Notes under the pieces: model-generated
Told to the model about the DNA's origin: nothing
The model's input: the letters and a program-made list of their open reading frames with translations, nothing else
Database searches by the model: none
Translations under genes and position numbers: made by a program
Virus record (IMG/VR): IMGVR_UViG_3300030390_001073
Direction: 5' to 3' (one strand)
DNA from: an uncultured virus (IMG/VR IMGVR_UViG_3300030390_001073)
Lineage: Duplodnaviria > Heunggongvirae > Uroviricota > Caudoviricetes
Length of the DNA: 64,000 nucleotides
In this document: piece by piece, positions 41,119 to 64,000 of the stretch
How positions within the stretch are numbered: the stretch's first letter is position 1
How the letters are laid out: the number at the start of each line of letters is the position of its first letter

Positions 41119-41344
41119 TAATAGTACAAGCAGTACCTTCAAGCACCATTTGATATCCTGCACGCTTGTCATAGTATATTATATCATTACTATTAATTGA
41201 CTTTACTTCTGTGCCGGGAGTTATAACTTTAGCTTTTTTATATCTAAATTGGTCAGCGTCTTGTTCAGACAATAATAATCCTGACTCTGTCTTTAGTTCT
41301 TCTTTAATGTTTTCTACTATAAGGTATTTATTAATTGCTATCAT
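41087..41344 (-). CDS. groES: co-chaperonin GroES-like
   Basis: KTESGLLL mobile loop, AKVITPG and IIREQDVVVV motifs; directly downstream of GroEL. Confidence 0.85.
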   Translation of the reverse strand: MIAINKYLIVENIKEELKTESGLLLSEQDADQFRYKKAKVITPGTEVKSINSNDIIYYDKRAGYQMVLEGTACTIIREQDVVVVV

Positions 41345-42950
41345 TTGATTCGTATGTTCTTGCCATTGTTATAATAGCGTTAGTAGATAATATAGTTACT
41401 GCTACAGAAACTGCATTTTGTAAAGCGTTCTTAGTTACTTTCATTGGGTCAATGATTCCCATGTCAATCATATTTCCATACACTTCATTCTTAACATCAT
41501 ATCCTACTCCATTATGTTTTCCTGACTCATATTTATCTTGTATGGTGCTTCCTGCGTTTTCTAGTATTTGTGAAAGTGGTGCAGATAGTGCACCATATAA
41601 AATTGCGTCAGCAATTTTTTGCGAATTTTTTTCTTTTTTTGATGTGTATGCAATAGCTATATCATACAATGCTACTCCACCACCCGGCAATATACCCTCT
41701 AATAGTGCGGAACGTACTGCACAGACTGCGTCATCTACTCTGTCATAGAGTTCTTTTTGTTCAATGTCGGTTTGACCTCCTACATATATAACTCCGATAC
41801 CACCGCTTAGTGCAGCTATACGAGATAGTAAAAAATCTTTATCATTTTTATTTGTAGCATTTTCATGTGCTTGCCATAATTGTAAAACTCTATCTTCTAC
41901 GTTAGCAACATAGTCAGTTGATTTAATCAATATACTAGACTCTTTACCAATTATACATTTATCAGCATGACCTAAGTCGGCAAACGAAATTAATGATAAG
42001 TCGTCACCTGTTTTTTCAGAAAAGTAATTTGCTCCAACCGATACTGCAATGTCTTGCATAAGCTCATGTTGTTTGTATCCAAACTGTGGAGGACCTATAA
42101 CACAAACTTGTAAACCATTCTTGACTACGTTTGCTGCTAAAGTATTTACAACATTAACAGACATAGGTGCAATGATTAATAATTTCTTCTGCTCATTAAT
42201 AATTGGCTTTAGAATATTCTCAATTGACAATACGTTTGATATCTCTGCATCACTTACTAAGACATGTACGTTTTCTAATATACACTCGTCCTTCTTTTGG
42301 TTATTAATAAATAAAGGCGATGTCCACCCTCTCTCAATTTTAATTCCGTTTGTGGTCTCGCCATAAGTATTACTTGATTCTGATTTTTCTACAGTAACTA
42401 TTCCGTTTTTACCAACCTCTTTATATGTGTCAGCAATAACTTTACCAATTACTTTGTCATTGTTCGCTGATATAACAGCTACATCAAGCAATCTTTTATT
42501 AGTAATTTTTTTAGAAGCCTTTTTTAATTTGTCTATTACTACCTCAGTTTCTTTTACTATCTCTTTTAATACCTCAGCTCTGTTTGTGGTCTCATCCATC
42601 AAGGCATCGCCTTGCTTAACTAATGCTTCAGTAAGAACAATAGCAGTAGTTGTACCATCACCTGCAGAGGTAGCAGTATTATCAGCTGCCTGTTTCATCA
42701 TACGAACCGCAAGGTTCTCTACAGGGTCTAATAAATCTACAGCCTTAGCTACGGTTACTCCGTCTTTAGTTACGGTTAACCCGCCCGTTACATATTGTGA
42801 TTCGATGAGGACTGTATTACCTCTAGGACCTAATGTGCTTTTAACTGCGTTTGCTATTTGTGTAATACCGGAGATAAGTTTTCCTCTTCCGTTTTCGCCA
42901 AAGGATAATTCTTTGGGATTAAAGCCTGATGGCATTTTGATTTGATTCAT
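41331..42950 (-). CDS. groEL: chaperonin GroEL-like
   Basis: TLGPRG, TKDGVTVA, AGDGTTTA, GILPGGG and GIIDP motifs. Confidence 0.95.
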   Translation of the reverse strand: MNQIKMPSGFNPKELSFGENGRGKLISGITQIANAVKSTLGPRGNTVLIESQYVTGGLTVTKDGVTVAKAVDLLDPVENLAVRMMKQAADNTATSAGDGTTTAIVLTEALVKQGDALMDETTNRAEVLKEIVKETEVVIDKLKKASKKITNKRLLDVAVISANNDKVIGKVIADTYKEVGKNGIVTVEKSESSNTYGETTNGIKIERGWTSPLFINNQKKDECILENVHVLVSDAEISNVLSIENILKPIINEQKKLLIIAPMSVNVVNTLAANVVKNGLQVCVIGPPQFGYKQHELMQDIAVSVGANYFSEKTGDDLSLISFADLGHADKCIIGKESSILIKSTDYVANVEDRVLQLWQAHENATNKNDKDFLLSRIAALSGGIGVIYVGGQTDIEQKELYDRVDDAVCAVRSALLEGILPGGGVALYDIAIAYTSKKEKNSQKIADAILYGALSAPLSQILENAGSTIQDKYESGKHNGVGYDVKNEVYGNMIDMGIIDPMKVTKNALQNAVSVAVTILSTNAIITMARTYESNDSN

Positions 42951-43257: not shown

Positions 43258-43482
43258 TTAAAGCTCATAAATATTTCTATCACCACTCATTCTCATCTTA
43301 GCTCTTTCAATTCCGTCAGCTATACAATCTATTTTGTATTGCTTTTTCATTTGCTGTCTATACATTGCAGCTTGTGCAATCCCTGAAACTCCATCAGGTC
43401 TGTTGTTAACCTCTCTGCCATTTCTCATGCCTAGTCCGTCAACATTTTCTGAGATTGAATTATCTCTACTTAAATTTTTCAT
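43258..43482 (-). CDS. hypothetical protein (74 aa)
   Basis: likely start MKNLSRDN at 43482. Confidence 0.6.
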   Translation of the reverse strand: MKNLSRDNSISENVDGLGMRNGREVNNRPDGVSGIAQAAMYRQQMKKQYKIDCIADGIERAKMRMSGDRNIYEL

Positions 43483-43540
43483 AGCCTTGTTTTTTTTGTA
43501 AAGGTACAAAATTTTTTGTAAGATATGTGTAGTATTTAGA

Positions 43541-43750
43541 CTCCCCCCCCTCACACGCAAACCTTCGCCAAAAGAAAACGCAAAAAAAAAGCTGACCCCC
43601 CCTAAACCTTTTAATATTTTCTTTCGGATTTTTTAGGAAAACGCCTGACCCCTGTCACCCCTACCTCCTCCCCCCCTCTGTCATCCTGTTGCGTAGCTTT
43701 GTCGTTACACACACCTCTACCATCTACCCTATACCACCTACCTTCCCCTC
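43541..43750. other. C-rich (G-rich on -) non-coding tract at the strand switch; candidate packaging/terminus region
   Basis: many C runs (ctccccccccc, gacccccc, ctcctccccccctc) in an otherwise AT-rich genome, between the divergent late and early blocks. Confidence 0.45.
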
Positions 43751-43990
43751 ATTACATGCATATATAATCTTATAATCTCATTACAAGCTAAGAGATATAA
43801 GAGTGCATCCCCTCTGCCTAAGTTTGACATAAATAAATCGTAGTGAAATGTGCTGTGCTAACACGCTAGTTATCAATGAGTTACAAAGACAACTAATAAA
43901 TAAATAAAATATTATACTAAAATTGTACGATAATTAAAATAATAGTTGTAGTATTGCATTATATTAATATTTAAATAAATAAAAAACATT

Positions 43991-44947
43991 ATGAAAAAAT
44001 TTAATAACAAATACCTACCAAAAATCAAAAAAATCAACGTCTTCGAAGCTGTCAACAAGCAAGTTACAGACGGGTTAAAAAAAACAGGTATGTCTTGGTT
44101 CAAAGCATGGACAGACTCAAACGGAAACATTCAAGACCCTATTAACAGATGTACTAAGAGAGGTTACAACGGAGTAAACATCTTTATCTTAAACGCTACT
44201 GCTTCAGTAGAAGGTTATCCATCCAACGAATGGGTTAGTTTTGCTGAAGCTAAGAAGCTAGGCAGTAACGTTAAGAAGGGAGAGAAGTCAACTATGATAG
44301 TATATTGGAACATAGCTTTCATGGTTAAGGACAAATGGTTTCCTAATCTAACTGCACTAAACAAGGCAGGGTATACGGAAGATGATGCTAAAAAACTATT
44401 TACATTAAAACAATTCAGAGTATTTAATATTGCACAATGTGAAAATCTAACAGCATGTAGAGAGATACCAACAGAGAGTGAAGATAACCTTGACATTCAA
44501 CCAATAGAATCGGCTGAAGCTATTGTAAACGGATACAAGAATGCTCCTAAGATAATAGAGAGACCACAAGGTAGTGCTTACTATACTCCTATGAGAGACA
44601 TCATAACAATGCCAACAAGAGAGCAGTTTGTTGAGCGTACTTCGATAGATGATTTCTATAAGGTTTTATTTCATGAGATGATTCATTCAACAGGACATTC
44701 ATCTAGATTAGATAGAAAACTTGTAGGTGTTACAGCTGACAAAGTATCTTATTCAAAGGAAGAATTGATAGCTGAGATAGGTGCAATGTATTTAACTTCG
44801 ATTGCTCACTTGAACCCTCAAGACCATGAGAGACAGAGTCAAGCGTATATCAACGGATGGATTAAGTTCATTAAATCTAGCCATGAGAAGGCATTGATAT
44901 CAGCAATGACCAAAGCTAGACAGGGTGTTGATTTAATCCTTAAGTAG
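43991..44947 (+). CDS. ardC: ArdC-like anti-restriction protein (ssDNA-binding domain plus zincin metallopeptidase domain)
   Basis: N..TKRGYNGVN...W.SF..AKKLG..VKKGEKS; VFNIAQ; AYYTP..D.I.MP; HEMIHSTGH..RL.R; YSKEELIAE. Confidence 0.9.
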   Translation: MKKFNNKYLPKIKKINVFEAVNKQVTDGLKKTGMSWFKAWTDSNGNIQDPINRCTKRGYNGVNIFILNATASVEGYPSNEWVSFAEAKKLGSNVKKGEKSTMIVYWNIAFMVKDKWFPNLTALNKAGYTEDDAKKLFTLKQFRVFNIAQCENLTACREIPTESEDNLDIQPIESAEAIVNGYKNAPKIIERPQGSAYYTPMRDIITMPTREQFVERTSIDDFYKVLFHEMIHSTGHSSRLDRKLVGVTADKVSYSKEELIAEIGAMYLTSIAHLNPQDHERQSQAYINGWIKFIKSSHEKALISAMTKARQGVDLILK

Positions 44948-44949
44948 TT

Positions 44950-44979
44950 TACTATCCTGAGCAAGATACCAAACTGCTC
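44950..44979 (+). ncRNA. small H-type pseudoknot motif, copy 1
   Basis: TATC-CTGAGCAA-GATA stem-loop; the loop GAGCA pairs with downstream TGCTC; near-identical copy at 45624. Confidence 0.65.
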
Positions 44980-45028
44980 TCTGTCGATAGGTGTGTACCT
45001 ATCCTGATGAAGCGAAAGCAGAAACAGA
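44980..45028 (+). ncRNA. type III hammerhead ribozyme 1 (predicted cleavage after GUC at 44985)
   Basis: TCTGTC / stem I GATAGGT-gtgt-ACCTATC / CTGATGA / A-GC-GAAA-GC-A / GAAACAGA closing stem III. Confidence 0.8.
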
Positions 45029-45053
45029 AACATTAATTAAATATATAAACATT

Positions 45054-45578
45054 ATGCAATTTACAAGAGAACAATTATCACAAATGGATTCACTAGACTT
45101 CCTAAAACTTATGGGATACACTATCGAGACAGGTAGCTGTGTATGGAACGGAAACGGACACGCTGACAAGTATGCTTTTACCGAGACTACTAAAGATGGC
45201 TATGACCTATTTGTATTTACAGATAACCCAAACAAACCACCACAAATATGTCAAGGCATTTTCTATGATGAGGATGGATTTTGGGATGGGTTGAAAGAAT
45301 ACATTATTGAAGATGGTACAGGAGAAGAGGTTATTGCCATTGAAGACCATGTCATGGAAACCATGAGTGATTGGTTTCTAGATGAGGATGAGATGGTTGA
45401 GATAGCTACAAACCTCGACATGTTTGTAGAACTACAGACTGAAAACGGATTAGATGTAGATGAGGTAAAAGAGTATTACCTGAATTCAGGATTTCCTCAA
45501 TACGATGCAGAACCATACAAATCGTATACGGATGAAGATTGGATTGACCACGCAAATGAAAACGAATTAGAAAGATAG
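45054..45578 (+). CDS. acidic early hypothetical protein flanked by hammerheads
   Basis: ATG at 45054 after an AAACATT leader (MQFTREQLSQ...); very Asp/Glu-rich. Confidence 0.75.
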   Translation: MQFTREQLSQMDSLDFLKLMGYTIETGSCVWNGNGHADKYAFTETTKDGYDLFVFTDNPNKPPQICQGIFYDEDGFWDGLKEYIIEDGTGEEVIAIEDHVMETMSDWFLDEDEMVEIATNLDMFVELQTENGLDVDEVKEYYLNSGFPQYDAEPYKSYTDEDWIDHANENELER

Positions 45579-45591
45579 CCAACAGGAGTGA

Positions 45592-45623
45592 TTTGGTAGT
45601 TTCGTTTATTTTTCGTACATTTG
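45592..45623 (+). promoter_or_regulatory. Bacteroidota sigma-A promoter (-33 TTTG, -7 TACATTTG)
   Basis: TTTG at 45592-45595, 20-nt spacer, TACATTTG at 45616-45623. Confidence 0.8.
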
Positions 45624-45653
45624 TACTATCCTGAGCAAGATATTAAACTGCTC
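45624..45653 (+). ncRNA. small H-type pseudoknot motif, copy 2
   Basis: tactatcctgagcaagatattaaactgctc differs from copy 1 only in the unpaired linker (cc to tt). Confidence 0.65.
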
Positions 45654-45702
45654 CTGTATCGAGATGAGTGTCTCGGCTGATGATTCCAAAAGGATGAAAC
45701 AG
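45654..45702 (+). ncRNA. type III hammerhead ribozyme 2 (predicted cleavage after GUA at 45658)
   Basis: CTGTA / stem I TCGAGA-tgagtg-TCTCGG / CTGATGA / T-TCC-aaaa-GGA-T / GAAACAG; stems differ in sequence from copy 1 but keep pairing. Confidence 0.85.
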
Positions 45703-45723
45703 AAACTTTAATTTAATAACATT

Positions 45724-45969
45724 ATGAGAAAATTAAGAAAATTACACATTTACTTTATGAATGCAATTACGTTTGCAGTAGCATTAGGAGTAATAGGTAT
45801 GGTAGGCAACTTGCTTGTACACCTAGTTAACAATGACATCACAGGTGTTGGGGATTTCCTAGCATGGATGGTGGCAGTAGGAATTTACTTAGCAGTAAGT
45901 TATTTAATATTTGGTCTTATCATTTTATCACACAAAGATGACATGAGAGACTTTAACTTAAACAACTAA
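45724..45969 (+). CDS. small two-TM membrane protein
   Basis: two hydrophobic segments; AACATTATG leader. Confidence 0.7.
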   Translation: MRKLRKLHIYFMNAITFAVALGVIGMVGNLLVHLVNNDITGVGDFLAWMVAVGIYLAVSYLIFGLIILSHKDDMRDFNLNN

Positions 45970-47359: not shown

Positions 47360-47620
47360 ATGAAAAATCCTTATTTTGATATCTTTGCACCAAGTGGAAT
47401 AGATGTCGTATTCAATTCAAACAATTCAATCACAATTAAAAAGAAAGGTGCAACGCATATCCTGTGTGAAATCTCAACGACAGAACATTTTGAGAGAGCA
47501 ATGCAGAAAGACCATGACAACACACCAAACATCGACTTACATGAAGTAACTTTAGTAAACGAAGAGCCTGCAAAACTAGGCATTCCTGAAGTTTACGCAT
47601 ACGATGATTTACCATTTTAA
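47360..47620 (+). CDS. hypothetical protein with SSB-like acidic tail (DDLPF)
   Basis: 86 aa ending YDDLPF. Confidence 0.7.
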   Translation: MKNPYFDIFAPSGIDVVFNSNNSITIKKKGATHILCEISTTEHFERAMQKDHDNTPNIDLHEVTLVNEEPAKLGIPEVYAYDDLPF

Positions 47621-57531: not shown

Positions 57532-57934
57532 AAATGAAAAAGATTTAGAAAGAGAGAAGAAAGCTATCAAGACATTTGTAACAGAATTTAATGGTAGCTT
57601 TAAAAAACTTGATGACAACGATATAGACTTTAAAATTTTTGATAGTAAAGGAAATCATATAGCTTATGCAGAAGTAAAAGGAAGATTAAAAAGTATAAAA
57701 GATGCCTACCCTTTACCTGTAGCAGCTAGAAAACTTGTAAAACTTGCTGATAAAAGATTAAATCCTGTTATGATTTGGAGTTGTTTTGATGGAATAATAT
57801 ACTGTCAAGTAAAACATATGAGAGGGTTAGTAACATGGGGAGGAAGAAAACCACGAACACATTCATATAACGACCAAGAACTAATGATTTATTTTAACAA
57901 GAAAGATTCTCCCTTTAAAATTATTTCTTTTTAA
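57521..57934 (+). CDS. putative PD-(D/E)XK nuclease
   Basis: IDF.....AYAEVKGR motif. Confidence 0.6.
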   Translation: MRFENEKDLEREKKAIKTFVTEFNGSFKKLDDNDIDFKIFDSKGNHIAYAEVKGRLKSIKDAYPLPVAARKLVKLADKRLNPVMIWSCFDGIIYCQVKHMRGLVTWGGRKPRTHSYNDQELMIYFNKKDSPFKIISF

Positions 57935-60900
57935 GTTTTTCTTTTAACTTTCTCTTTTCAGCATCTAAATTTTTAACTGTTTCATAAAGTTTTGGATTAA
58001 ACTCTTTAAGTATTTTCCTGCTTATTCCTTTGCCACTTCCCTTTTTAGTTCCACGCTTTCCTGATGCAGGTCTGCCACCTTGAGGTACACCCAATATATC
58101 ATAGATATATTGTTCAGTATCTTCGCCATTCATTATTATATTAACACCACCTTCAAAGAAGTCAAATTGAAATCCTGCCAAAAATTCTGCAGCAGGTTTT
58201 AAACCTTTTAATACCTCATTATCTCCAAACTGTCTCATCATTTCTCGAGTTATTCTTTCAACAGGTTCAACTGTAGATTGATTTCTCTCAAAAGCAGTCA
58301 TTTTTCTTCCTTTTACCATATAAAAAAGAAATGAATTTATTGTACCTCCTAATACAGGAACTTGTTCTAGTTGTGATGCACCATACATAGCTAATTTTAT
58401 TTTGTCATAAGCTTTTTCTTTCTCTTTGTCATCACCCCTCATTAAAACAAACATCTGTGATGCCATAACAAAGAACATAGGTGCTAAAGCTCCTGATAAT
58501 AATAATCCTCTGACATCTGCTTGATTTACTTTGTTTTCATTAGAAAAAGCTTCTTTAAAATTACCTTTTAGAATTTCTTCTCCTTGATTACGAAGACTTC
58601 TACTAATATTTCTAAATCTCATTGCATTTTCATTCAATAGTAAAAGTAGTGAACTTCCAAATGTAGTAAACAATCGTAATAAACCACCTTCCATTTGAAG
58701 ACCACCTTTATCCATATCTCTTCGAGATTGTTGAGTCATGTTGTATTCAACAAATCTCATGGTAGCATCTATTTCAGACATTCCGTTTGCAATGTCTTGA
58801 TTATATGTAGCTAAATAACCTAGCACACCCAATATATCTCCTATTGTAGTACCCGCTCCTAAAAAAGCATTTATTTTTTCACTTAATTGTCTTGGAGTAA
58901 GTTCTATTTTATTCAGTCCCGGCAATTTCATAACATACTTAATTCCAAATTCACCAAGAGCTACTTGTGTATTTAAACCGAGCTTTTGACCTGACTCTAA
59001 TTCTGCTATACTAGCTCCTGTTAAAGCATCAGCCATTCTTTTTTCAAATCCTGCTGATATTCTTTTAGCTGTTTTCATTCCACCTTCTTTTCCTAAAGCT
59101 GTCATAGCTAAAACTTGAGCATATCTAAACGTAAACATTAATGCATCTAAAGGAAGGGCAGGTAATTCAGCTGCTAAACCTGTAATTCCACCTTTTTTTC
59201 TAGCTCTTCCTAATGTACCTAAAGCTCCTTTTTGTTCTGTAGTAAAGTTAGTAAACGCCATTATAGATGATGTAAATTGTTTAGGTATTTGCATCAATTT
59301 TAAATTAAGTGTATAAGAGATAAATCCTCCCATTACAAAATTTATTAAAGCATTCATTTGTGTAGAATTACCAAGCGTACCATTAATAGAATAATTTAAT
59401 AATTTATTAACGAGGTCTGTAGTTCCTGTTGCATCTAATAAATTAGCTATAGATGGAGTATTTAAAAGTTTATTAAACAAAGAAACAGTATCGGCATAAG
59501 CTTTATACCTTTCCATTTCTTGAATATGATTGTTTAATTTATTTGTAAAACTAGAATTTAAATCAAGAGGACCTTTCTTTCCTCTTGTTTTTACACTACC
59601 CGGAGAATTGCCTTTAAATGCTGAACCATAATTATTAGGGTTTTGTAAATCTGCTTGTTGACTTTTTCTTGAATCAAACTGTACAGCTACAGGAAAATAA
59701 TCTTGTATTTTTTCAAGAGATACATCATTATTTTTTATATATACATTGTTGACACCTTCAAAATAAGTATTAGTCAACCACTCTACAACCCCGTCTACAT
59801 AGGCAACTAATTTATTTCCTAAATGTTTTTGTATTTGTTCTATAATTTCATCTGTTATGCCTTGTTCTTTTTGACGTTTTCTTGTGTCATTATTTTTACT
59901 ATAAGCATACATACTCATTAACATGTCAGCATCAAAAAGTTTTCTTTTACCGTCAATTACTAATTCTAAATTTGGTTTACTGTATATTTCTTGTGGTAAT
60001 CCTACAACTCTACCTTTAGTTATACCGGCTTTTTTTGCTATGTTATCTAATTCAGTATTACTATCTCTTATACCCTCTTCTCTATTAAAATTAGAAGTTG
60101 TCAATCTTTTTTGAAACACTCTAGTAAAGAATTTTCCTTTACGACCATCAAGCATATTAAATACTGTTCCTGTGTGAGATAATAGACCATCAAAGAATTG
60201 TCTTAACGTTACAGCCGGGTTCACACTTGCACCTATATTTTTATATCCACTAAAAAATTGTTCTGCATAATCTCTTGCAGTTTGCACAAATCCATTATCT
60301 TTTAAAGAAGTTAATATGTTTTTTCTATTATTATTAATTTCTTCAGGAGTTAATGGTCTACCACTTTCATCGAATAAAAAAGGATTGTCTGCTAAAATAT
60401 CTTTATCGGCTTCTCTTTCTAGTTTTGCAGCTTCTTTTCTTCTGTTATCAATTCTATCTAAAAGTTTCTTTCTAGATTCTTTTGTCTCTTCTTTTAAAGC
60501 TTGAAACATATCTTCGAGTTCAGCTAAGGACATTTCATTTACATTACCCATTCTTGAATATGCTTCTACTTCGGCTAAAAGTGTAACTTGGTCTGAATTT
60601 AAAATATTTTGAGAATTTAAATCGTCAGCCAAAGCTTCATCTATTTCTGATTCTTTTTTAGCTAGTTCTTCTTGTTTAGAATTTAATTCATCAGGTGTCA
60701 TCTGCATTAGTCTATCTACAGCTTTAAAAAACTCCATTCCTCTGTACTCAACAGTTCCTGCTTTAGGTTTCTTAGCACTTTTTTTAGCTTTACTTTTAGA
60801 TTTAACGTAATCTGAAATTTTATTTCTTAAATCTTTAATATCTTTTGCTATAATTACATCGGCTATATCTTGAACTTCTAATACAGTTGCTCTAAAGTTA

Positions 60901-63900
60901 TCTTCATTTACCTTAGCCATCTTTTTTATTAATCTATCTAACTTAGCTTTATTAATATTATCTGACTTAGGTATTAGTGCTTGTATTACGTTTTGTAATT
61001 TATTTCTAGTAGCTAAATTAACTTTGTCTTGTTTTTTACGACCTCTTAATTCAGAAAGAATTTCATTTATTTCTCTTTGTGTTTGCACACCTGCCTTGCT
61101 TCCTAACATCTTATCATAAGCAACAATCAAGTTTTGTCTGTCTAATTCAGATAAGCTTTTAAATTTTTCATTGCTTTCAATTTCTTTTTTCCTAGCTTCT
61201 CTCTCTGATTTATTATTAGTACGTTTACCTTCAGCTTTATCTTTTGCTTGTCTAGCTTCACGAACTTGGTCTAGTTCTTGCAGGATTTCTCTACCAACAT
61301 TTATACCACCTTCTATATTAGCAAACGCAGGAGGTACTTGTATGTTAATAGCCATATCATCTACTGCTTTTTTAGCATCTGTTCTAGACAATTTATTTCT
61401 TTTAACTAATACCTCAATTATTTGATTCTTTGTAAACCCTAATTGTCTTCCACGATAAATAACGTCTTCTACTGACAATCCTTTTCTAAATGCTAATTCA
61501 GGATTTTTTAAAGCTTTCTTTTGTATATCTGTTAAAGCTATTTCTTTACCACTAAATATATCTGCTAATGCAGTTCCAATAAACTTATCAAGATTCATGT
61601 CTCGAATCTCTTGTTCGGTCAAGTCTTTAGACATTTTAAATTGACTCTTGATATATTTCCACATACCAAATAACCATTCTTTAAATTTAGAAAGTAATGT
61701 TGAATTAGCTATAGTTTCGCCTTCGTTACCAATTAAAATAGCCATTGTTTCGTCAGCTGCTTTTTTAGAATCGCCATCAAACTTTTTTAATTGTTTCTTA
61801 TATTCATCTGTTTTGCTAACTAACTCTACACCTCTTGCATATATACGTTTGCCTTTAGCAGTTGTTTGTAAATAGTCAGTCCAAATGTGACCCATCTCAT
61901 GTATTGCTGTATTATATAAAGAGCTTTCATTATTATGTACATCAGGATTTATATATATATCTCCATTTTTAGTAACACCATATATTACTTCATTGCCTTT
62001 TAAATACTTTTGAGTACCGGGTTCATTGATAACTTGTTGAAACACCTCACTATCTACACTCATCATCACGCTAGGAAAAGATTTGTTAATGAAGTTTACA
62101 AGTTTATTAATATTGCTTTGGTTATAATTAGCTAACGCTCCTATGTAATCTTTAGAAGCTATGCCAATGCCAATGCCTGTTTGATTAGTTCTTAATTGTT
62201 TACCCGTAACTTTTGTGCTAGATTTTTTTACTGTTTTACCTTTTACTTTTTTCTTAGAAGGTGTTTGTTCTTTTTCTATTAAACTTCCTAAAGCTTTTTC
62301 ATATGCTATAGGATAAGCTTTCTCCATTGCCACCGGATTAGATAAAACCCCTATTGATTTTCCTTTAGGTGCAAACGGATAGTTAGGATGATTAGATTTA
62401 AGAACTTCAGGATTTAAAACATCTACACCTACAACACCAATTATACTTAACTCAGGCACATTTTTTAATTGTGGGTCGGTAATAATTTCTGCAATGCTTC
62501 CAATGTTAACTAATTTATTATTAGATTTATCTTGATTCTCCATTAAAGCTCTAGTAACTGTAGAGCTTTTAGCAATAGTACCGGCTTCTTTAGTTTCATT
62601 TGGTTTGTTAACCGTACCGTATCCTATTATTTTCATAAGATTAGCTCTAGCTCCAAGTCCTAATTTATCAACAAATGCAGGTGCTACTACATCATCAATA
62701 GAATTAAGGTTATCAGATTCTAACAATGCAATTATATCATTAAATGGTTTCTTTTTATCCGACTTATCTCTTCGGCTTATAATTTCTTCCTTCAAAGCTT
62801 CTAAAGCTTTTACTCTATTTTCTTCAGGTAACTTAGTAATATTGTCAGCCAAGACTCTAAACATAGCTTCATTAGATACAATACCATCTTCAGCCATTTT
62901 AACTACATTAACCATAACCAAGCCATTGTAATCAGGATTTTCTTCCCAAAATTTATCGTAAACTTCTTTATTGTTATTATATATATTTTGAGCTTTATTA
63001 ATCATTCCTTGAGCAGTCTTTTCATTAGTGCTTGCCCAAGCAGCGTTTTCATTTCCTACCGTACCATTAAAACCTATAGCTCCTTTTAAATTATCTATTG
63101 TTTTTCCTGTATTTGGATTGACTGTATTACCTGTTGTAAGTTGGTCAGATATAGTAAATGAAGTTGGTAAATCATTTACAACATCGAAAGTTGTTTCATT
63201 TAATTTATTATCTGTTCTGTTGTTTAATTCATCAACATCTATAGATACACTTTCTTCATCTCTTTCAATTTTAACATTTACGTTATCACTTTCTAATTCG
63301 TTAATTTTTGAAGTTATATTTTCTACTCTTTCTCTATTTGGTTCAGTAACAGCATCATCTTTTAATCTAAAATTAACTGACTCATCTACATCTAGTTGTT
63401 GTTCAAGTCTTTCTACAGCTTCCATGTCAACATCCTCAGTTGTTTCCGATTCATAAACAATTTCAAAAGTTCCGTCAGGATTAATTTTTTCTATAACAGA
63501 TACATCATCTAAAGTATAACCACCTTTTATATGACCATCAACGTCATTTTTCATTCTAAGTTTATTGTCAGGTAAAGCAGAATCTATTACATCTCCTTTA
63601 TAAGTTACTCTATATTCAGCATCTGTAGCTGTTGTAACTTTTTCTGAGTTGGTAACATCTACACCAAAGGATTTGTTTTTACCTTCAATAGTTTCATTAT
63701 TATTAAGAGCATCAACTTCAGATTGTCCTACAAATCTATAAGTAGGTTTAAACTTCCAATCAATTCCATACTTCTCAAATCTTTGTTGCATATCAACATC
63801 CCCTGCTCTTGCTTTTTCTAAATCACTTATTTCTTGTTGGTTACTTTCTCCGGAAGATTCTTGATTTTCACCGGGTACTTGTTCTTCCATTTGTTGAACA

Positions 63901-64000
63901 GGTCCTTTCGGTTGGCTGCTAGCCATCTCGCTTGTCTCTTGCTTTGTATCGGCATCGGTATCTATTTTTATTAATTCAGATGGGTTAAGGTCAATCCCTA
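57921..64000 (-). CDS. C-terminal part of a giant polyvalent-type virion protein (5' end outside window)
   Basis: The frame is open upstream of Met 63926 to the window edge (GIDLNPSELIKIDTDADTKQETSEM...). It contains a HEMGH zincin motif at 61887-61901 and a long helical C-terminal region. Confidence 0.8.
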   Translation of the reverse strand, partial: GIDLNPSELIKIDTDADTKQETSEMASSQPKGPVQQMEEQVPGENQESSGESNQQEISDLEKARAGDVDMQQRFEKYGIDWKFKPTYRFVGQSEVDALNNNETIEGKNKSFGVDVTNSEKVTTATDAEYRVTYKGDVIDSALPDNKLRMKNDVDGHIKGGYTLDDVSVIEKINPDGTFEIVYESETTEDVDMEAVERLEQQLDVDESVNFRLKDDAVTEPNRERVENITSKINELESDNVNVKIERDEESVSIDVDELNNRTDNKLNETTFDVVNDLPTSFTISDQLTTGNTVNPNTGKTIDNLKGAIGFNGTVGNENAAWASTNEKTAQGMINKAQNIYNNNKEVYDKFWEENPDYNGLVMVNVVKMAEDGIVSNEAMFRVLADNITKLPEENRVKALEALKEEIISRRDKSDKKKPFNDIIALLESDNLNSIDDVVAPAFVDKLGLGARANLMKIIGYGTVNKPNETKEAGTIAKSSTVTRALMENQDKSNNKLVNIGSIAEIITDPQLKNVPELSIIGVVGVDVLNPEVLKSNHPNYPFAPKGKSIGVLSNPVAMEKAYPIAYEKALGSLIEKEQTPSKKKVKGKTVKKSSTKVTGKQLRTNQTGIGIGIASKDYIGALANYNQSNINKLVNFINKSFPSVMMSVDSEVFQQVINEPGTQKYLKGNEVIYGVTKNGDIYINPDVHNNESSLYNTAIHEMGHIWTDYLQTTAKGKRIYARGVELVSKTDEYKKQLKKFDGDSKKAADETMAILIGNEGETIANSTLLSKFKEWLFGMWKYIKSQFKMSKDLTEQEIRDMNLDKFIGTALADIFSGKEIALTDIQKKALKNPELAFRKGLSVEDVIYRGRQLGFTKNQIIEVLVKRNKLSRTDAKKAVDDMAINIQVPPAFANIEGGINVGREILQELDQVREARQAKDKAEGKRTNNKSEREARKKEIESNEKFKSLSELDRQNLIVAYDKMLGSKAGVQTQREINEILSELRGRKKQDKVNLATRNKLQNVIQALIPKSDNINKAKLDRLIKKMAKVNEDNFRATVLEVQDIADVIIAKDIKDLRNKISDYVKSKSKAKKSAKKPKAGTVEYRGMEFFKAVDRLMQMTPDELNSKQEELAKKESEIDEALADDLNSQNILNSDQVTLLAEVEAYSRMGNVNEMSLAELEDMFQALKEETKESRKKLLDRIDNRRKEAAKLEREADKDILADNPFLFDESGRPLTPEEINNNRKNILTSLKDNGFVQTARDYAEQFFSGYKNIGASVNPAVTLRQFFDGLLSHTGTVFNMLDGRKGKFFTRVFQKRLTTSNFNREEGIRDSNTELDNIAKKAGITKGRVVGLPQEIYSKPNLELVIDGKRKLFDADMLMSMYAYSKNNDTRKRQKEQGITDEIIEQIQKHLGNKLVAYVDGVVEWLTNTYFEGVNNVYIKNNDVSLEKIQDYFPVAVQFDSRKSQQADLQNPNNYGSAFKGNSPGSVKTRGKKGPLDLNSSFTNKLNNHIQEMERYKAYADTVSLFNKLLNTPSIANLLDATGTTDLVNKLLNYSINGTLGNSTQMNALINFVMGGFISYTLNLKLMQIPKQFTSSIMAFTNFTTEQKGALGTLGRARKKGGITGLAAELPALPLDALMFTFRYAQVLAMTALGKEGGMKTAKRISAGFEKRMADALTGASIAELESGQKLGLNTQVALGEFGIKYVMKLPGLNKIELTPRQLSEKINAFLGAGTTIGDILGVLGYLATYNQDIANGMSEIDATMRFVEYNMTQQSRRDMDKGGLQMEGGLLRLFTTFGSSLLLLLNENAMRFRNISRSLRNQGEEILKGNFKEAFSNENKVNQADVRGLLLSGALAPMFFVMASQMFVLMRGDDKEKEKAYDKIKLAMYGASQLEQVPVLGGTINSFLFYMVKGRKMTAFERNQSTVEPVERITREMMRQFGDNEVLKGLKPAAEFLAGFQFDFFEGGVNIIMNGEDTEQYIYDILGVPQGGRPASGKRGTKKGSGKGISRKILKEFNPKLYETVKNLDAEKRKLKEKLKKK
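63827..63955 (-). CDS. 42-aa basic protein overprinted in another frame of the giant gene
   Basis: MPIQSKRQARWLAANRKDLFNKWKNKYPVKIKNLPEKVTNKK with an A-rich upstream context. Confidence 0.6.
   Translation of the reverse strand: MPIQSKRQARWLAANRKDLFNKWKNKYPVKIKNLPEKVTNKK

What the first reader, a model, noticed from the sequence alone, without database searches (positions are those of the whole stretch)
44950..45702. Duplicated pseudoknot-hammerhead cassette in the early region
Seen: two intergenic copies of a 30-nt element, TACTATCCTGAGCAAGATA(cc/tt)AAACTGCTC. It folds as an H-type pseudoknot (TATC/GATA; GAGCA/TGCTC) and is fused within a few nt to a type III hammerhead. The hammerheads keep the CUGAUGA/GAAA core and stem III, while stems I and II differ fully in sequence yet still pair, which suggests selection on structure. 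Established: hammerheads self-cleave to give 2',3'-cyclic phosphate and 5'-OH ends, and they occur in phage genomes. Inference: this is a modular RNA-processing unit that leaves each upstream product ending in a pseudoknot and gives the downstream early mRNA a 5'-OH end. I cannot assign the pseudoknot to a named family.
Basis: partly seen in the sequence, partly recalled or inferred. Interest (0 to 1): 0.9.

Follow-up and report, generated by a model that had tools for sequence, protein, structure and literature searches.

The report
Pseudoknot-plus-hammerhead mRNA cutting cassettes
Two gaps between early genes of this marine phage each hold a small knotted RNA followed at once by a self-cutting hammerhead ribozyme, which probably chops the long early transcript into single-gene messages whose new tail ends in the knot.

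Summary
A 30-nt element occurs twice (44950-44979, 45624-45653). Each copy is followed within 1-2 nt by a type III hammerhead (44980-45028, 45654-45702).

The hammerheads are not new in kind. Copy 2 shares its core and stem II letter for letter with 37 viral contigs. It is 93% identical over 45 nt to the hammerhead of LUZ24/PaP3-like Pseudomonas phages. Perreault et al. 2011 listed that hammerhead and reported the PaP3 one as active. Stems I and III covary strongly (98.5% of cells paired, against 36-42% in slid controls). Rfam misses both copies at its gathering score, because position 10.1/11.1 is U.U or A.A instead of G-C.

The pseudoknot is real and is a separate module. A strict pattern finds it in at least 129 viral and 119 prokaryotic loci, with covariation in both stems. 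It usually starts 4-8 nt after a stop codon. It is often followed 4-7 nt later by a tRNA, and only rarely by a hammerhead. No Rfam family matches it. Its core resembles the coremin/xrRNA-WCC knot of RNA viruses. This scan had already noted the same knot on other DNA.

Most likely reading: the ribozyme cuts 5-6 nt behind the knot, so the upstream message ends in a protective knot with a cyclic phosphate. The downstream message then starts with a 5'-OH and the ribozyme fold. Cleavage and protection are untested here. One metatranscriptome contig starts exactly at 44986.

The parts
43991..44947 (+). Upstream gene: ArdC-like anti-restriction protein (318 aa). Its TAG stop ends 5 nt before S1 of pseudoknot 1.
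   Evidence: Pfam ArdcN 4e-22 and MPTase-PolyVal 4.4e-27; PHROG anti-restriction 7e-58.
44953..44979 (+). Pseudoknot 1: S1 UAUC 44953-56 / GAUA 44965-68; L1 CU 44957-58; S2 GAGCA 44959-63 / UGCUC 44975-79; L2 A 44964; L3 CCAAAC 44969-74.
   Evidence: Sequence; exact repeat; model R2 42.2 bits; family covariation.
44980..45028 (+). Hammerhead 1 (type III): stem III 44980-84 / 45024-28; C17 at 44985, predicted cut 44985|44986; stem I 44986-91 / 44998-45003 with loop UGUGUA; core CUGAUGA 45004-10; stem II A-GC-GAAA-GC-A 45011-20 (A.A at 10.1/11.1); GAA 45021-23.
   Evidence: Sequence; model R1 65.4 bits; covariation; same core and stem II in 62 viral loci; RNA-library contig lies on 44986-45145.
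45054..45578 (+). ORF of 174 aa with no known family, flanked by the two cassettes. The stretch between the two predicted cuts is 673 nt (44986-45658).
   Evidence: ORF list; no Pfam or PHROG hit; homologue with 56% identity in syntenic L013.
45586..45623 (+). Conserved block between the stop codon and pseudoknot 2. It carries TTTG-N20-TACATTTG, which looks like a Bacteroidota-type promoter (consensus recalled, not tested).
   Evidence: Nearly identical in L013, while the flanking proteins are only 56% identical; TAnnTTTG alone is common in the window, 51 and 47 per strand.
45627..45653 (+). Pseudoknot 2: S1 UAUC 45627-30 / GAUA 45639-42; L1 CU; S2 GAGCA 45633-37 / UGCUC 45649-53; L2 A 45638; L3 UUAAAC 45643-48.
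   Evidence: Sequence; model R2 45.0 bits; variants in L013 and in run X5 are wobble-compatible, e.g. 45636 C>T gives G.U.
45654..45702 (+). Hammerhead 2 (type III): stem III CUGU 45654-57 / ACAG 45699-702; A17 at 45658, predicted cut 45658|45659; stem I 45659-64 / 45671-76 with loop UGAGUG; core 45677-83; stem II U-UCC-AAAA-GGA-U 45684-95 (U.U at 10.1/11.1).
   Evidence: Rfam Hammerhead_3 27.5 bits, E 0.0016; model R1 75.2 bits; 93% identical over 45 nt to 65 Pseudomonas phage records; PaP3 orthologue.
45724..45969 (+). Downstream ORF of 81 aa. Its start codon lies 21 nt after hammerhead 2. The A/U-rich leader has no Shine-Dalgarno sequence.
   Evidence: ORF list; homologues downstream of the same cassette in L013, L024, L030 and L037.

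Best explanation
Each cassette joins two independent RNA modules that lie between early genes of a phage of marine Flavobacteriia. Module 1 is a compact H-type pseudoknot that phages and bacteria place a few bases after a stop codon. Module 2 is a type III hammerhead of the LUZ24/PaP3 clade. While the early polycistronic RNA is made, each hammerhead folds and cuts itself, after C44985 and after A45658. The upstream RNA then ends in the knot, a 5-6 nt tail and a 2',3'-cyclic phosphate. The downstream RNA begins with a 5'-OH and the compact ribozyme body, about 20-25 nt before its start codon. I infer that the knot shields the new 3' end against 3'-to-5' decay. I also infer that the 5'-OH and ribozyme fold slow 5'-end-dependent decay, so each cistron becomes a separately stable message. 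Shown here: both structures exist and are under selection, and the knot is tied to gene ends. Shown by others: the PaP3 orthologue cleaves in vitro. Inferred only: cleavage of these two copies, and any protective role. The confidence of 0.5 is for the whole statement; taken separately I put about 0.85 on real self-cleaving hammerheads, 0.9 on a real RNA pseudoknot, and 0.45-0.5 on 3'-end protection as the knot's role.
For: Hammerhead. In 47 family members, stems I and III are paired in 98.5% of cells, against 36-42% when the partner is slid. Nine of 11 pairs change on both sides, and 0 of 500 shuffles reach the covariation score. The core, A15.1-U16.1 and H17 are intact. The core and stem II of copy 2 are exact in 37 viral loci, and those of copy 1 in 62. 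PaP3 carries the same U.U form. Perreault 2011 lists it among the active core variants and describes U10.1-U11.1 (passages; supplement hits). That paper also reports several hammerheads flanking genes in prophages, including ardA. Relatives L006 and L089 each hold two hammerheads about 330 nt apart.

Knot. In 119 sequences, 86.3% of cells pair, against 27-37% when slid. Pair 6-19 uses AU 50, GC 34, UA 23 and CG 10. Pair 11-31 uses GC 94 and AU 16. Pair 14-28 uses CG 87 and UG 32, so the structure is RNA on this strand.

Gene-end link. In 90 of 119 viral loci a frame of at least 60 codons ends within 40 nt upstream, against 10 of 121 in the opposite-strand control. The stop-to-S1 spacer is 4-8 nt in 62 of 89. 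The distance to the next ORF is broad, 18-146 nt.

Coupling to devices that make 3' ends. In 35 of 125 loci a tRNA starts 2-16 nt (mode 4-7) after S2. The window's cleavage tails are 6 and 5 nt.

Same slot as hairpins. Of 52 hammerhead contexts, 8 have the knot. Of the other 44, 21 have a hairpin of -12 kcal/mol or stronger ending within 3 nt of stem III, against 2 of 176 control windows. L058 and L060 carry the stem I of hammerhead 1 behind a 12-bp hairpin instead of the knot.

Selection. The block 45586-45710 is nearly identical in L013, although the flanking proteins are 56% identical.

RNA. A 165-nt contig of metatranscriptome run X19, with no differences, lies on 44986-45145. It starts at the first base after the predicted cut.
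Against: Neither copy reaches Rfam's gathering score, and copy 1 is not reported even at E up to 10. The A.A form at 10.1/11.1 was not seen described as active in the passages I read. Perreault says U.U is the best-tolerated mismatch, which implies that A.A is worse in minimal constructs. A contig of a 93%-similar relative in RNA library X20 runs across the cut site (44787-45015). This may be uncleaved RNA or carried-over DNA. Contigs cannot prove RNA ends, and X19 is one contig at depth 2. The knot's nearest known relative, coremin, blocks 5'-to-3' enzymes, which is the opposite direction to the one I propose. Copy 2 sits 48 nt after its stop codon, behind a conserved promoter-like block. Some transcripts may therefore begin at or inside the knot. 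Most knots (65 of 125) are followed by no recognisable 3'-end device. Many loci are related to each other, for example 29 of the 35 tRNAs are tRNA-Asp, so the counts are not independent events. In prokaryotic contigs the opposite-strand control was as high as the test (58 of 117 against 62 of 118, with 150-nt flanks and a 35-codon threshold).
Confidence: 0.5

Rival explanations
1. The knot is a true coremin-type roadblock. It stops 5'-to-3' exonucleases (RNase J) or ribosomes that approach from upstream, and so protects or regulates what lies downstream (tRNA, ribozyme, next gene) rather than the upstream message.
For: The core is shared with coremin and xrRNA-WCC: a UC/GA-closed S1, a one-nucleotide C bridge, an A-rich L3 ending AAAC-U, and a GAG/CUC pairing. 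Coremin stalls Xrn1 and scanning ribosomes (abstract and passages). The knot sits a fixed 4-7 nt before tRNAs.
Against: In this window the hammerhead would cut the knot away from the downstream RNA, so the knot could protect it only before cleavage. The knot is positioned relative to the upstream stop codon, not the next start. It occurs in genera such as Acinetobacter and Legionella; from memory, gammaproteobacteria lack RNase J. A tRNA 5' leader is removed by RNase P in any case.
Confidence: 0.12
2. In hammerhead contexts the upstream knot or hairpin is mainly a folding aid. It keeps upstream coding sequence from interfering, and it stacks on the weak 4-5 bp stem III so that the ribozyme folds fast and releases its 5' product.
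For: The structures end 0-3 nt from stem III in most contexts. Stem III is only 4-5 bp. Perreault notes that weak stems III are common.
Against: This does not explain why the same knot stands at gene ends without any ribozyme: 121 of 125 have no core match, and 2 of the 4 regex hits look false. It also does not explain the 4-8 nt lock to stop codons. The Pseudomonas phage members show no helix abutting stem III in the 42-nt fold; the gap is 13 nt.
Confidence: 0.15
3. The knot is a transcription signal, either an unusual terminator or attenuator or an RNA that binds polymerase or a protein. The hammerhead next to it is incidental.
For: In 22 of 125 viral and 18 of 118 prokaryotic loci, a run of five or more T follows within 25 nt. 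In prokaryotic contigs an opposite-strand ORF often ends nearby, as at terminators. The invariant loop letters suggest recognition by a partner.
Against: No T-run follows either window copy. S2 is only 5-6 bp and is not G+C-rich. Most loci lack a T-run. Where a tRNA or hammerhead follows, transcription must continue through the knot.
Confidence: 0.1
4. The pair of hammerheads excises the 673-nt ORF174 unit so that it can be ligated, into a circle or into a spliced product. This is possible because both ribozymes share the same stem III (CUGU/ACAG), so the ends can rebuild a hybrid hammerhead or serve as RtcB substrates.
For: Both copies have the same stem III. The ends would be 5'-OH and 2',3'-cyclic phosphate, which is established hammerhead chemistry. 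Perreault raises this possibility for clustered hammerheads.
Against: CUGU/ACAG is simply the family consensus (UA 38 of 47, CG 44 of 47), so the identity is not special. Perreault looked for such products and found none. No joint was seen in the laid runs (table 5), though these were contigs at low depth.
Confidence: 0.05
5. The hammerhead-like sequences are inactive relics or serve a role without cleavage, because the 10.1/11.1 pair is broken.
For: G10.1-C11.1 is the most conserved stem pair. Rfam scores are low.
Against: The core is conserved exactly, with compensatory stem changes, across very distant phages. The PaP3 U.U form is reported active. The RNA contig starts at 44986, which is the A.A copy.
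Confidence: 0.05

Closest known systems
Type III hammerhead of Pseudomonas phages LUZ24/PaP3 (Perreault et al. 2011, PMC3088659; Rfam clan CL00010)
   Same: Same architecture and loop I consensus. The core and stem II are the same, with a U10.1.U11.1 mismatch. Copy 2 is 93% identical over 45 nt to the LUZ24-like records. PaP3 itself differs further by one stem II loop letter, UAAA instead of AAAA. The element sits just before the first ORF of an early block.
   Different: The hosts are far apart (Flavobacteriia-type phage against Pseudomonas). Stems I and III differ through compensatory changes. Copy 1 uses another stem II (GC-GAAA-GC flanked by A.A). In the window a gene-end pseudoknot precedes the ribozyme; the Pseudomonas phages have a nested hairpin there.
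Clustered hammerheads flanking genes in prophages, e.g. the A. tumefaciens trio around ardA (Perreault et al. 2011)
   Same: Several ribozymes flank single genes of a phage transcript. An anti-restriction gene is next to a ribozyme in both cases. The proposed role is the same: cutting a polycistronic RNA into gene-length mRNAs.
   Different: Here the anti-restriction gene is ArdC-like, not ArdA. The passages I read do not mention a conserved structure placed just 5' of the cut.
Coremin motif (xrRNA-C) and its Watson-Crick variant xrRNA-WCC of eukaryotic RNA viruses (Dilweg, Olsthoorn and co-workers; PMC10520033, PMC10321173)
   Same: A small H-type knot. S1 is closed by UC/GA (GUC/GAC in coremin). 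A single pyrimidine bridges to S2. L3 is A-rich and ends AAAC followed by U. The GAG/CUC pairing of the WCC form lies inside the phage S2. Eight of 119 phage copies even read AAGACGUUAAACU as coremin does.
   Different: The loop is 8 nt (CUGAGCAA), not YGAD or YGNNAD. S2 is 5-6 canonical pairs, not 3. The conserved CUAC is replaced by CUGCUC. No obligatory hp2 is evident. The hosts are bacteria and phages, which lack Xrn1. The proposed direction of protection is opposite. No nuclease test exists.
MALAT1/MEN-beta 3' end: a triple helix next to a tRNA-like mascRNA that RNase P cuts
   Same: A compact protective structure lies directly upstream of a built-in cleavage device (tRNA-like element or ribozyme), so that processing leaves the structure at the new 3' end.
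   Different: The organisms, fold (U-rich triple helix with an A-rich tract) and scale all differ. The likeness is one of logic only.

Membership tests
Hammerhead ribozyme, type III (Rfam RF00008) | Conserved core CUGANGA ... GAAA with A15.1-U16.1 and a non-G at position 17 | tested here: met
   Both copies have CUGAUGA, GAAA, A15.1-U16.1 and H17 (C in copy 1, A in copy 2).
Hammerhead ribozyme, type III (Rfam RF00008) | Three helices around the core, with stems I and II closed by loops and stem III open, supported by covariation | tested here: met
   98.5% of cells are paired, 9 of 11 pairs change on both sides, and slid controls give 36-42%. Stem II was fixed by the search pattern, so it was not tested.
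Hammerhead ribozyme, type III (Rfam RF00008) | G10.1-C11.1 pair at the base of stem II | tested here: not met
   A.A in copy 1 and U.U in copy 2. U.U is a published natural variant. A canonical G-C version of the same ribozyme occurs in L089.
Hammerhead ribozyme, type III (Rfam RF00008) | Score at or above Rfam's gathering cut-off (48.5 bits) | tested here: not met
   No hit at gathering score. Copy 2 scores 27.5 bits, and copy 1 is not listed at E up to 10.
Hammerhead ribozyme, type III (Rfam RF00008) | Site-specific self-cleavage that gives 2',3'-cyclic phosphate and 5'-OH ends | not testable with these tools
   Indirect only: the PaP3 orthologue is reported active, and an RNA-library contig begins at 44986.
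Coremin / xrRNA-C | Short hp1 (GUC/GAC) with loop YGAD or YGNNAD | tested here: not met
   S1 is closed by UC/GA, but the loop is the 8-nt CUGAGCAA.
Coremin / xrRNA-C | Spacer of 8-10 nt with conserved ...AAACUAC, followed directly by a second hairpin hp2 | tested here: inconclusive
   UUAAACU is shared, but it continues GCUC rather than AC. The next hairpin (hammerhead stem I) starts 7 nt after S2, and in other loci a tRNA follows.
xrRNA-WCC (Watson-Crick coremin variant) | Canonical three-pair S2 (GAG/CUC type) between the hp1 loop and the spacer, with G at the bridging position | tested here: inconclusive
   A canonical S2 with covariation is present, but it is 5-6 pairs long and the bridge is C(U), not G.
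Coremin / xrRNA-C and xrRNA-WCC | Resistance to a 5'-to-3' exoribonuclease | not testable with these tools
   No assay was possible. My searches found no paper on such a test for phage RNA.
Any Rfam 15 family covering the pseudoknot | A covariance-model match over the 27-33 nt element | tested here: not met
   Nothing overlaps the knot in the window at E up to 10. Nothing overlaps it in 20 of the 129 viral knot loci at E up to 5.
Intrinsic (rho-independent) terminator | G+C-rich hairpin followed at once by a U-run | tested here: not met
   Neither window copy is followed by a T-run. T-runs follow within 25 nt in 22 of 125 viral loci.

The most novel reading that the evidence does not exclude
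The 27-nt knot is a general 3'-end cap for messages in bacteria and phages, and it shares its fold with the coremin/xrRNA-WCC knots of eukaryotic RNA viruses. Genomes pair it with whatever device makes a clean end a few bases behind it: RNase P at a tRNA, a terminator, or, as here, a self-cleaving hammerhead. The window's cassette would then be a fully RNA-encoded 'cut and cap' unit. It would be the prokaryotic counterpart of the MALAT1 triple helix with mascRNA.
Probability: 0.35. Interest if true: 0.85.

Novelty: new variant of a known kind. Interest (0 to 1): 0.62.

Why it matters
Hammerheads that flank phage genes have been known since 2011, but what they achieve has stayed open. This window places a second conserved module exactly at the cut. 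Comparison shows that strong hairpins fill this slot in other phages, and that the same knot elsewhere sits the same few bases before tRNAs. This turns a vague idea (the ribozymes process the transcript) into a testable design rule: structure, then a 5-nt tail, then the cut.

It also bears on the direction in which a very widespread, uncatalogued RNA knot acts. A knot that is cut away from the downstream RNA cannot be there to protect that RNA. If confirmed, the knot would be one of the most common small structured RNAs of phages, and a compact part for stabilising synthetic messages.

Tried and rejected
1. Promoter or 5'-leader reading of the knot. AT-rich TAAATAAA-like sequence upstream first suggested a promoter. 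The ORF test showed these are stop codons of upstream genes. A promoter-like block does remain before copy 2.

2. Stop-codon readthrough or frameshift stimulator. Rejected: TAA is the stop in 67 of 89 cases, and the in-frame extension has a median of 7 codons.

3. HDV-like 'theta', pistol or twister ribozymes, the preQ1-I riboswitch, and CRISPR-repeat mimics. These were considered from memory only. The order of helices or the sequence does not fit, and Rfam gave no such hit.

4. No hit in the window or in 20 knot loci.

5. Searching the window's own genome for more copies. No genome is held.

6. Literature. 'hammerhead' with 'LUZ24' gave 0 papers. The knot's letters occur only as unrelated primers (102 papers, 10 listed). 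'xrRNA', 'bacteriophage' and 'RNase J' gave nothing on phage knots among the 12 listed of 181. One search failed on syntax and was not repeated.

7. RNA-library cover. Only 4 of 30 bins in X19 and 8 of 30 in X20 have any depth. The uncovered parts say nothing.

8. Exact strings of the two stem II forms were not found in Perreault's supplementary text. The alignments may be broken by gaps, and one file was cut when stored. So I cannot say whether the A.A form is in their data set.

9. Synteny of hammerhead 1. No viral locus in hand carries an ArdC-like gene before the ribozyme.
Full report
WHAT IS THERE

The window is a low-G+C (about 32%) tailed-phage sequence. Structural and packaging genes lie on the minus strand up to about 43.5 kb. 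These include the portal, the large terminase subunit, virion proteins and a GroEL-like chaperonin. A block of anti-restriction, nuclease, primase and helicase genes lies on the plus strand from 43,991. Its terminase is 74.6% identical to that of an uncultured Caudoviricetes record. It is about 45% identical to those of Flavobacterium 'elemo' and Cellulophaga phages. Near-identical DNA occurs in marine metagenomes. 'Early region' is therefore a fair label by gene content, though timing was not measured.

The 30-nt element occurs exactly twice, at 44950-44979 and 45624-45653, with none expected by chance. Each copy is followed by a hammerhead-like core.

Read directly from the sequence, cassette 1 is laid out as follows:
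- The TAG stop of an ArdC-like gene is at 44945-47.
- A 5-nt spacer follows.
- The knot spans 44953-44979.
- Hammerhead 1 spans 44980-45028, with C17 at 44985.
- A 25-nt A/U-rich leader follows.
- The ATG of a 174-aa ORF is at 45054.

Cassette 2 is laid out as follows:
- The ORF's stop is at 45576-78.
- A 48-nt spacer follows.
- The knot spans 45627-45653.
- Hammerhead 2 spans 45654-45702, with A17 at 45658.
- A 21-nt leader follows.
- The ATG of an 81-aa ORF is at 45724.

Covariance models built from relatives find no further copy of either module in the 64 kb.

THE HAMMERHEADS ARE REAL, AND OF A KNOWN CLADE

Rfam reports nothing in the window at gathering score. In E-value mode only copy 2 appears (Hammerhead_3, 27.5 bits against a cut-off of 48.5, E 0.0016). 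The reason is position 10.1/11.1, which reads U.U in copy 2 and A.A in copy 1 instead of G-C.

A blastn search gave an unexpected match. Forty-five bases of copy 2 are 93% identical to an unannotated spot just before the first early ORF of 65 Pseudomonas Bruynoghevirus (LUZ24-like) records. No other part of the 2.7-kb query matched. In phage Clew-1 the start codon even overlaps stem III.

The exact 24-mer of copy 2's core and stem II occurs in 37 IMG/VR loci. The 22-mer of copy 1 occurs in 62. Of the matches, 34 lacked the type III layout, and I dropped them as 'other'; those I looked at are in a type I arrangement. I aligned 45 distinct type III members with the two window copies. Stems I and III form standard pairs in 98.5% of 517 cells, against 36-42% when the 3' partner is slid. 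Nine of 11 pairs change on both sides, all six pairs of stem I covary, and no shuffle out of 500 reaches the covariation score. Stem II was fixed by the search strings, so it says nothing. Position 17 is always A, U or C.

A canonical G-C version of the same ribozyme (CUGAUGAGUCCAAAAGGACGAAAC) stands in L089 and scores 47.3 bits in Rfam, still under the cut-off.

This clade is in print. In Perreault et al. 2011 (PMC3088659) I read passages, not the whole text. [quoted passage not shown] They note that this mismatch was already known to be the best tolerated. They report that stem II often has only two pairs and that weak stems III are common. [quoted passage not shown] Their supplement lists LUZ24 and PaP3 and a primer for a 'PaP3 phage potential type3 HH at end of genome'. 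PaP3 carries the orthologue at 45419-45483 of its 45,503-bp record, with U.U (66.7 bits with my model).

The same paper describes several hammerheads flanking single genes in prophages, including a trio around ardA in Agrobacterium. It proposes that long phage transcripts are cut into gene-length mRNAs. Two relatives in my set (L006, L089) also carry two hammerheads about 330 nt apart. The ribozyme half of the finding is therefore a pair of new members of a known kind. I did not see the A.A form of copy 1 described.

THE PSEUDOKNOT IS REAL, WIDESPREAD AND INDEPENDENT OF THE RIBOZYME

The strict pattern TCCTRAGYAAGANNNNAAACTGC hit 129 IMG/VR loci and 119 loci in the species-representative genome set. 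The genome hits span many phyla, including Saccharibacteria, Aminicenantes, Clostridia, Flavobacteriia, Acinetobacter, Legionella and Helicobacter.

I aligned 119 distinct copies, including the window's two. The positions not fixed by the pattern covary:
- S1 pair 6-19 is paired in 117 of 119 (AU 50, GC 34, UA 23, CG 10).
- Pair 5-20 is paired in 100 of 119, with six pair types.
- S2 pair 11-31 is GC 94, AU 16, GU 3.
- Pair 14-28 is CG 87, UG 32.

Overall 86.3% of cells pair, against 27-37% when slid. The frequent G.U pairs would be A.C on the other strand, so the fold belongs to RNA of this strand. The dimensions suit a compact H-type knot: S1 of 4 or more bp, a 1-2 nt bridge, S2 of 5-6 bp, one unpaired A, and a 6-nt A-rich L3.

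No Rfam family covers it, either in the window at E up to 10 or in 20 of the viral loci at E up to 5. Its letters occur in the paper library only as unrelated primers.

Only 4 of 125 distinct viral copies have a hammerhead-core match within 110 nt, and two of these look false. None of 118 prokaryotic copies has one.

WHERE THE KNOT SITS

My first guess was a promoter-proximal leader. That was wrong, and notes from earlier agents of this scan pointed to gene ends. I tested this.
- In 90 of 119 viral loci with enough flank, a frame of at least 60 codons ends within 40 nt upstream. The opposite-strand control gives 10 of 121.
- The spacer from the stop codon to the first S1 base is 4-8 nt in 62 of 89. 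Only one is shorter than 4.
- The stop is TAA in 67, TAG in 15 and TGA in 7.
- The frame stays open for a median of 7 codons beyond the stop, which rules out readthrough.
- The distance to the next ORF is broad, 18-146 nt with an interquartile range of 25-106.

In 35 of 125 loci a same-strand tRNA begins 2-16 nt after S2, most often 4-7 nt. Twenty-nine of these are tRNA-Asp, so many are related. A run of T follows within 25 nt in 22 of 125. In L106 the knot abuts the DUF2800 RNA motif.

The prokaryotic set is less clear. The test gave 62 of 118 and the control 58 of 117, with short flanks and a 35-codon threshold. The same sharp peak at 4 nt appears, however.

WHAT THE COMBINATION SHOWS

I looked at the hammerhead family in 52 distinct contexts. 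Eight have the knot directly 5' of stem III. Of the other 44, 21 have a hairpin of -12 kcal/mol or stronger ending within 3 nt of stem III, against 2 of 176 control windows from the same loci (listing). Twenty-nine of the 52 have a long ORF ending 19-75 nt upstream.

L058 and L060 carry a hammerhead whose stem I matches the window's copy 1 except for one loop letter. They carry it behind a 12-bp GUGUC...GACAC hairpin instead of the knot. The knot and a stable hairpin are therefore interchangeable in the slot 'after the stop codon, just before the cut'.

The window's cuts would leave tails of 6 and 5 nt behind S2. This is within the modal knot-to-tRNA distance.

The cassette is under strong constraint. 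In the syntenic relative L013 the flanking proteins are 56% identical. Yet the block from 45586 through the ribozyme is nearly identical, and its few changes are wobble or compensatory. The variants seen in run X5 behave the same way.

RNA EVIDENCE

Two metatranscriptome runs hold parts of the region, as assembled contigs only. In X19 a 165-nt contig without differences lies on 44986-45145. It begins at the first base after the predicted cut of hammerhead 1, with three unaligned letters beyond. In X20 a contig of a 93%-similar relative spans 44787-45015 and crosses the site.

Contigs cannot prove ends, DNA can be present in RNA libraries, and depth is low. I count the exact coincidence as a weak hint for cleavage. 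The bridging contig is equally weak evidence for uncut molecules.

MECHANISM

Established chemistry: a hammerhead cut leaves a 2',3'-cyclic phosphate and a 5'-OH.

Inferred: the upstream message (ArdC-like, then ORF174) ends in knot, short tail and cyclic phosphate. The downstream message starts with 5'-OH and the ribozyme body, 20-25 nt before the start codon. The knot shields the 3' end.

The 4-nt minimum spacer after the stop codon fits a structure that is set as close as a terminating ribosome allows without being unwound. The ribosome footprint used here is recalled, not tested.

The main alternative comes from the knot's nearest known relative. Coremin (GUCCGAAGACGUUAAACUAC) and its Watson-Crick variant share several features with the phage knot: the UC/GA-closed S1, a one-pyrimidine bridge, the ...AAAC-U linker and a GAG/CUC pairing. 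Both stall Xrn1 and ribosomes that come from the 5' side. The phage knot fails the loop consensus and has a longer S2, so I do not file it as a member.

In this window a 5'-side roadblock would be cut away from the RNA it is meant to protect. That is why the cassette argues for the 3'-cap direction.

Copy 2 adds a complication. A conserved TTTG-N20-TACATTTG block ends 3 nt before S1. If it is a promoter, some transcripts start at or inside the knot. TAnnTTTG alone is too common here to decide (51 and 47 per strand).

VERDICT

- The ribozymes are new members of a published clade.
- The knot is an uncatalogued but very common gene-end RNA that this scan has met before on other DNA.
- Their fusion is rare and informative, because it bears on which side the knot serves.
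- Self-cleavage of these copies, the activity of the A.A form and any protective effect are untested.

Noticed in passing
window 43480-43990: A gene-free stretch of about 500 nt lies between the minus-strand late block and the plus-strand early block. It has several long C-runs (for example ctccccccccctcaca, gaccccccccta, cctccccccctctgtc), followed by very AT-rich sequence. It may be an origin, a genome end or a promoter region.
   Followed up: no
window 45586-45623: The 38 nt before pseudoknot 2 (TTTG-N20-TACATTTG) are almost unchanged in relative L013, although the neighbouring proteins are only 56% identical. A similar TATATTTGTACTA stands before the ORF at 47360. These are possible Bacteroidota-type promoters.
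   Followed up: partly
window 41331-42950 (-): The phage encodes a full-length GroEL/Cpn60-type chaperonin (Pfam Cpn60_TCP1 9.5e-53; PHROG 1.6e-127).
   Followed up: no
window 57921-63926 (-): A 2001-aa ORF has no Pfam or PHROG match at the thresholds used. The frame is open to the window end.
   Followed up: no
L040-L101 (e.g. L041 401-470, L042): The same core and stem II string as hammerhead 1 also occurs in a type I arrangement (closed stem III, then GUC, then stem I). In some loci this lies about 60 nt before a tRNA gene. Rfam reported no hammerhead for these at E up to 0.1.
   Followed up: partly
L106 253-445: A gene-end pseudoknot directly abuts a DUF2800 RNA motif (RF02960, 159.9 bits). 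The knot therefore also precedes structured RNAs other than tRNAs and hammerheads.
   Followed up: no
window 45029-45053, 45703-45723 and relatives (L013, L016, L024, L054): The leader between the hammerhead and the start codon keeps a motif of the form AAC(W)UUAAUUUAAU in the Shine-Dalgarno-less relatives. Relatives with a GGAGG site keep AACUAACUUAAUU. It may be a translation-initiation or standby element.
   Followed up: no
L231 onward (genome contigs): The knot pattern is frequent in contigs binned as Saccharibacteria and Aminicenantes. One hit is in a Poseidoniales archaeon bin. I did not check whether these are prophages, contaminating phage contigs or chromosomal genes.
   Followed up: no
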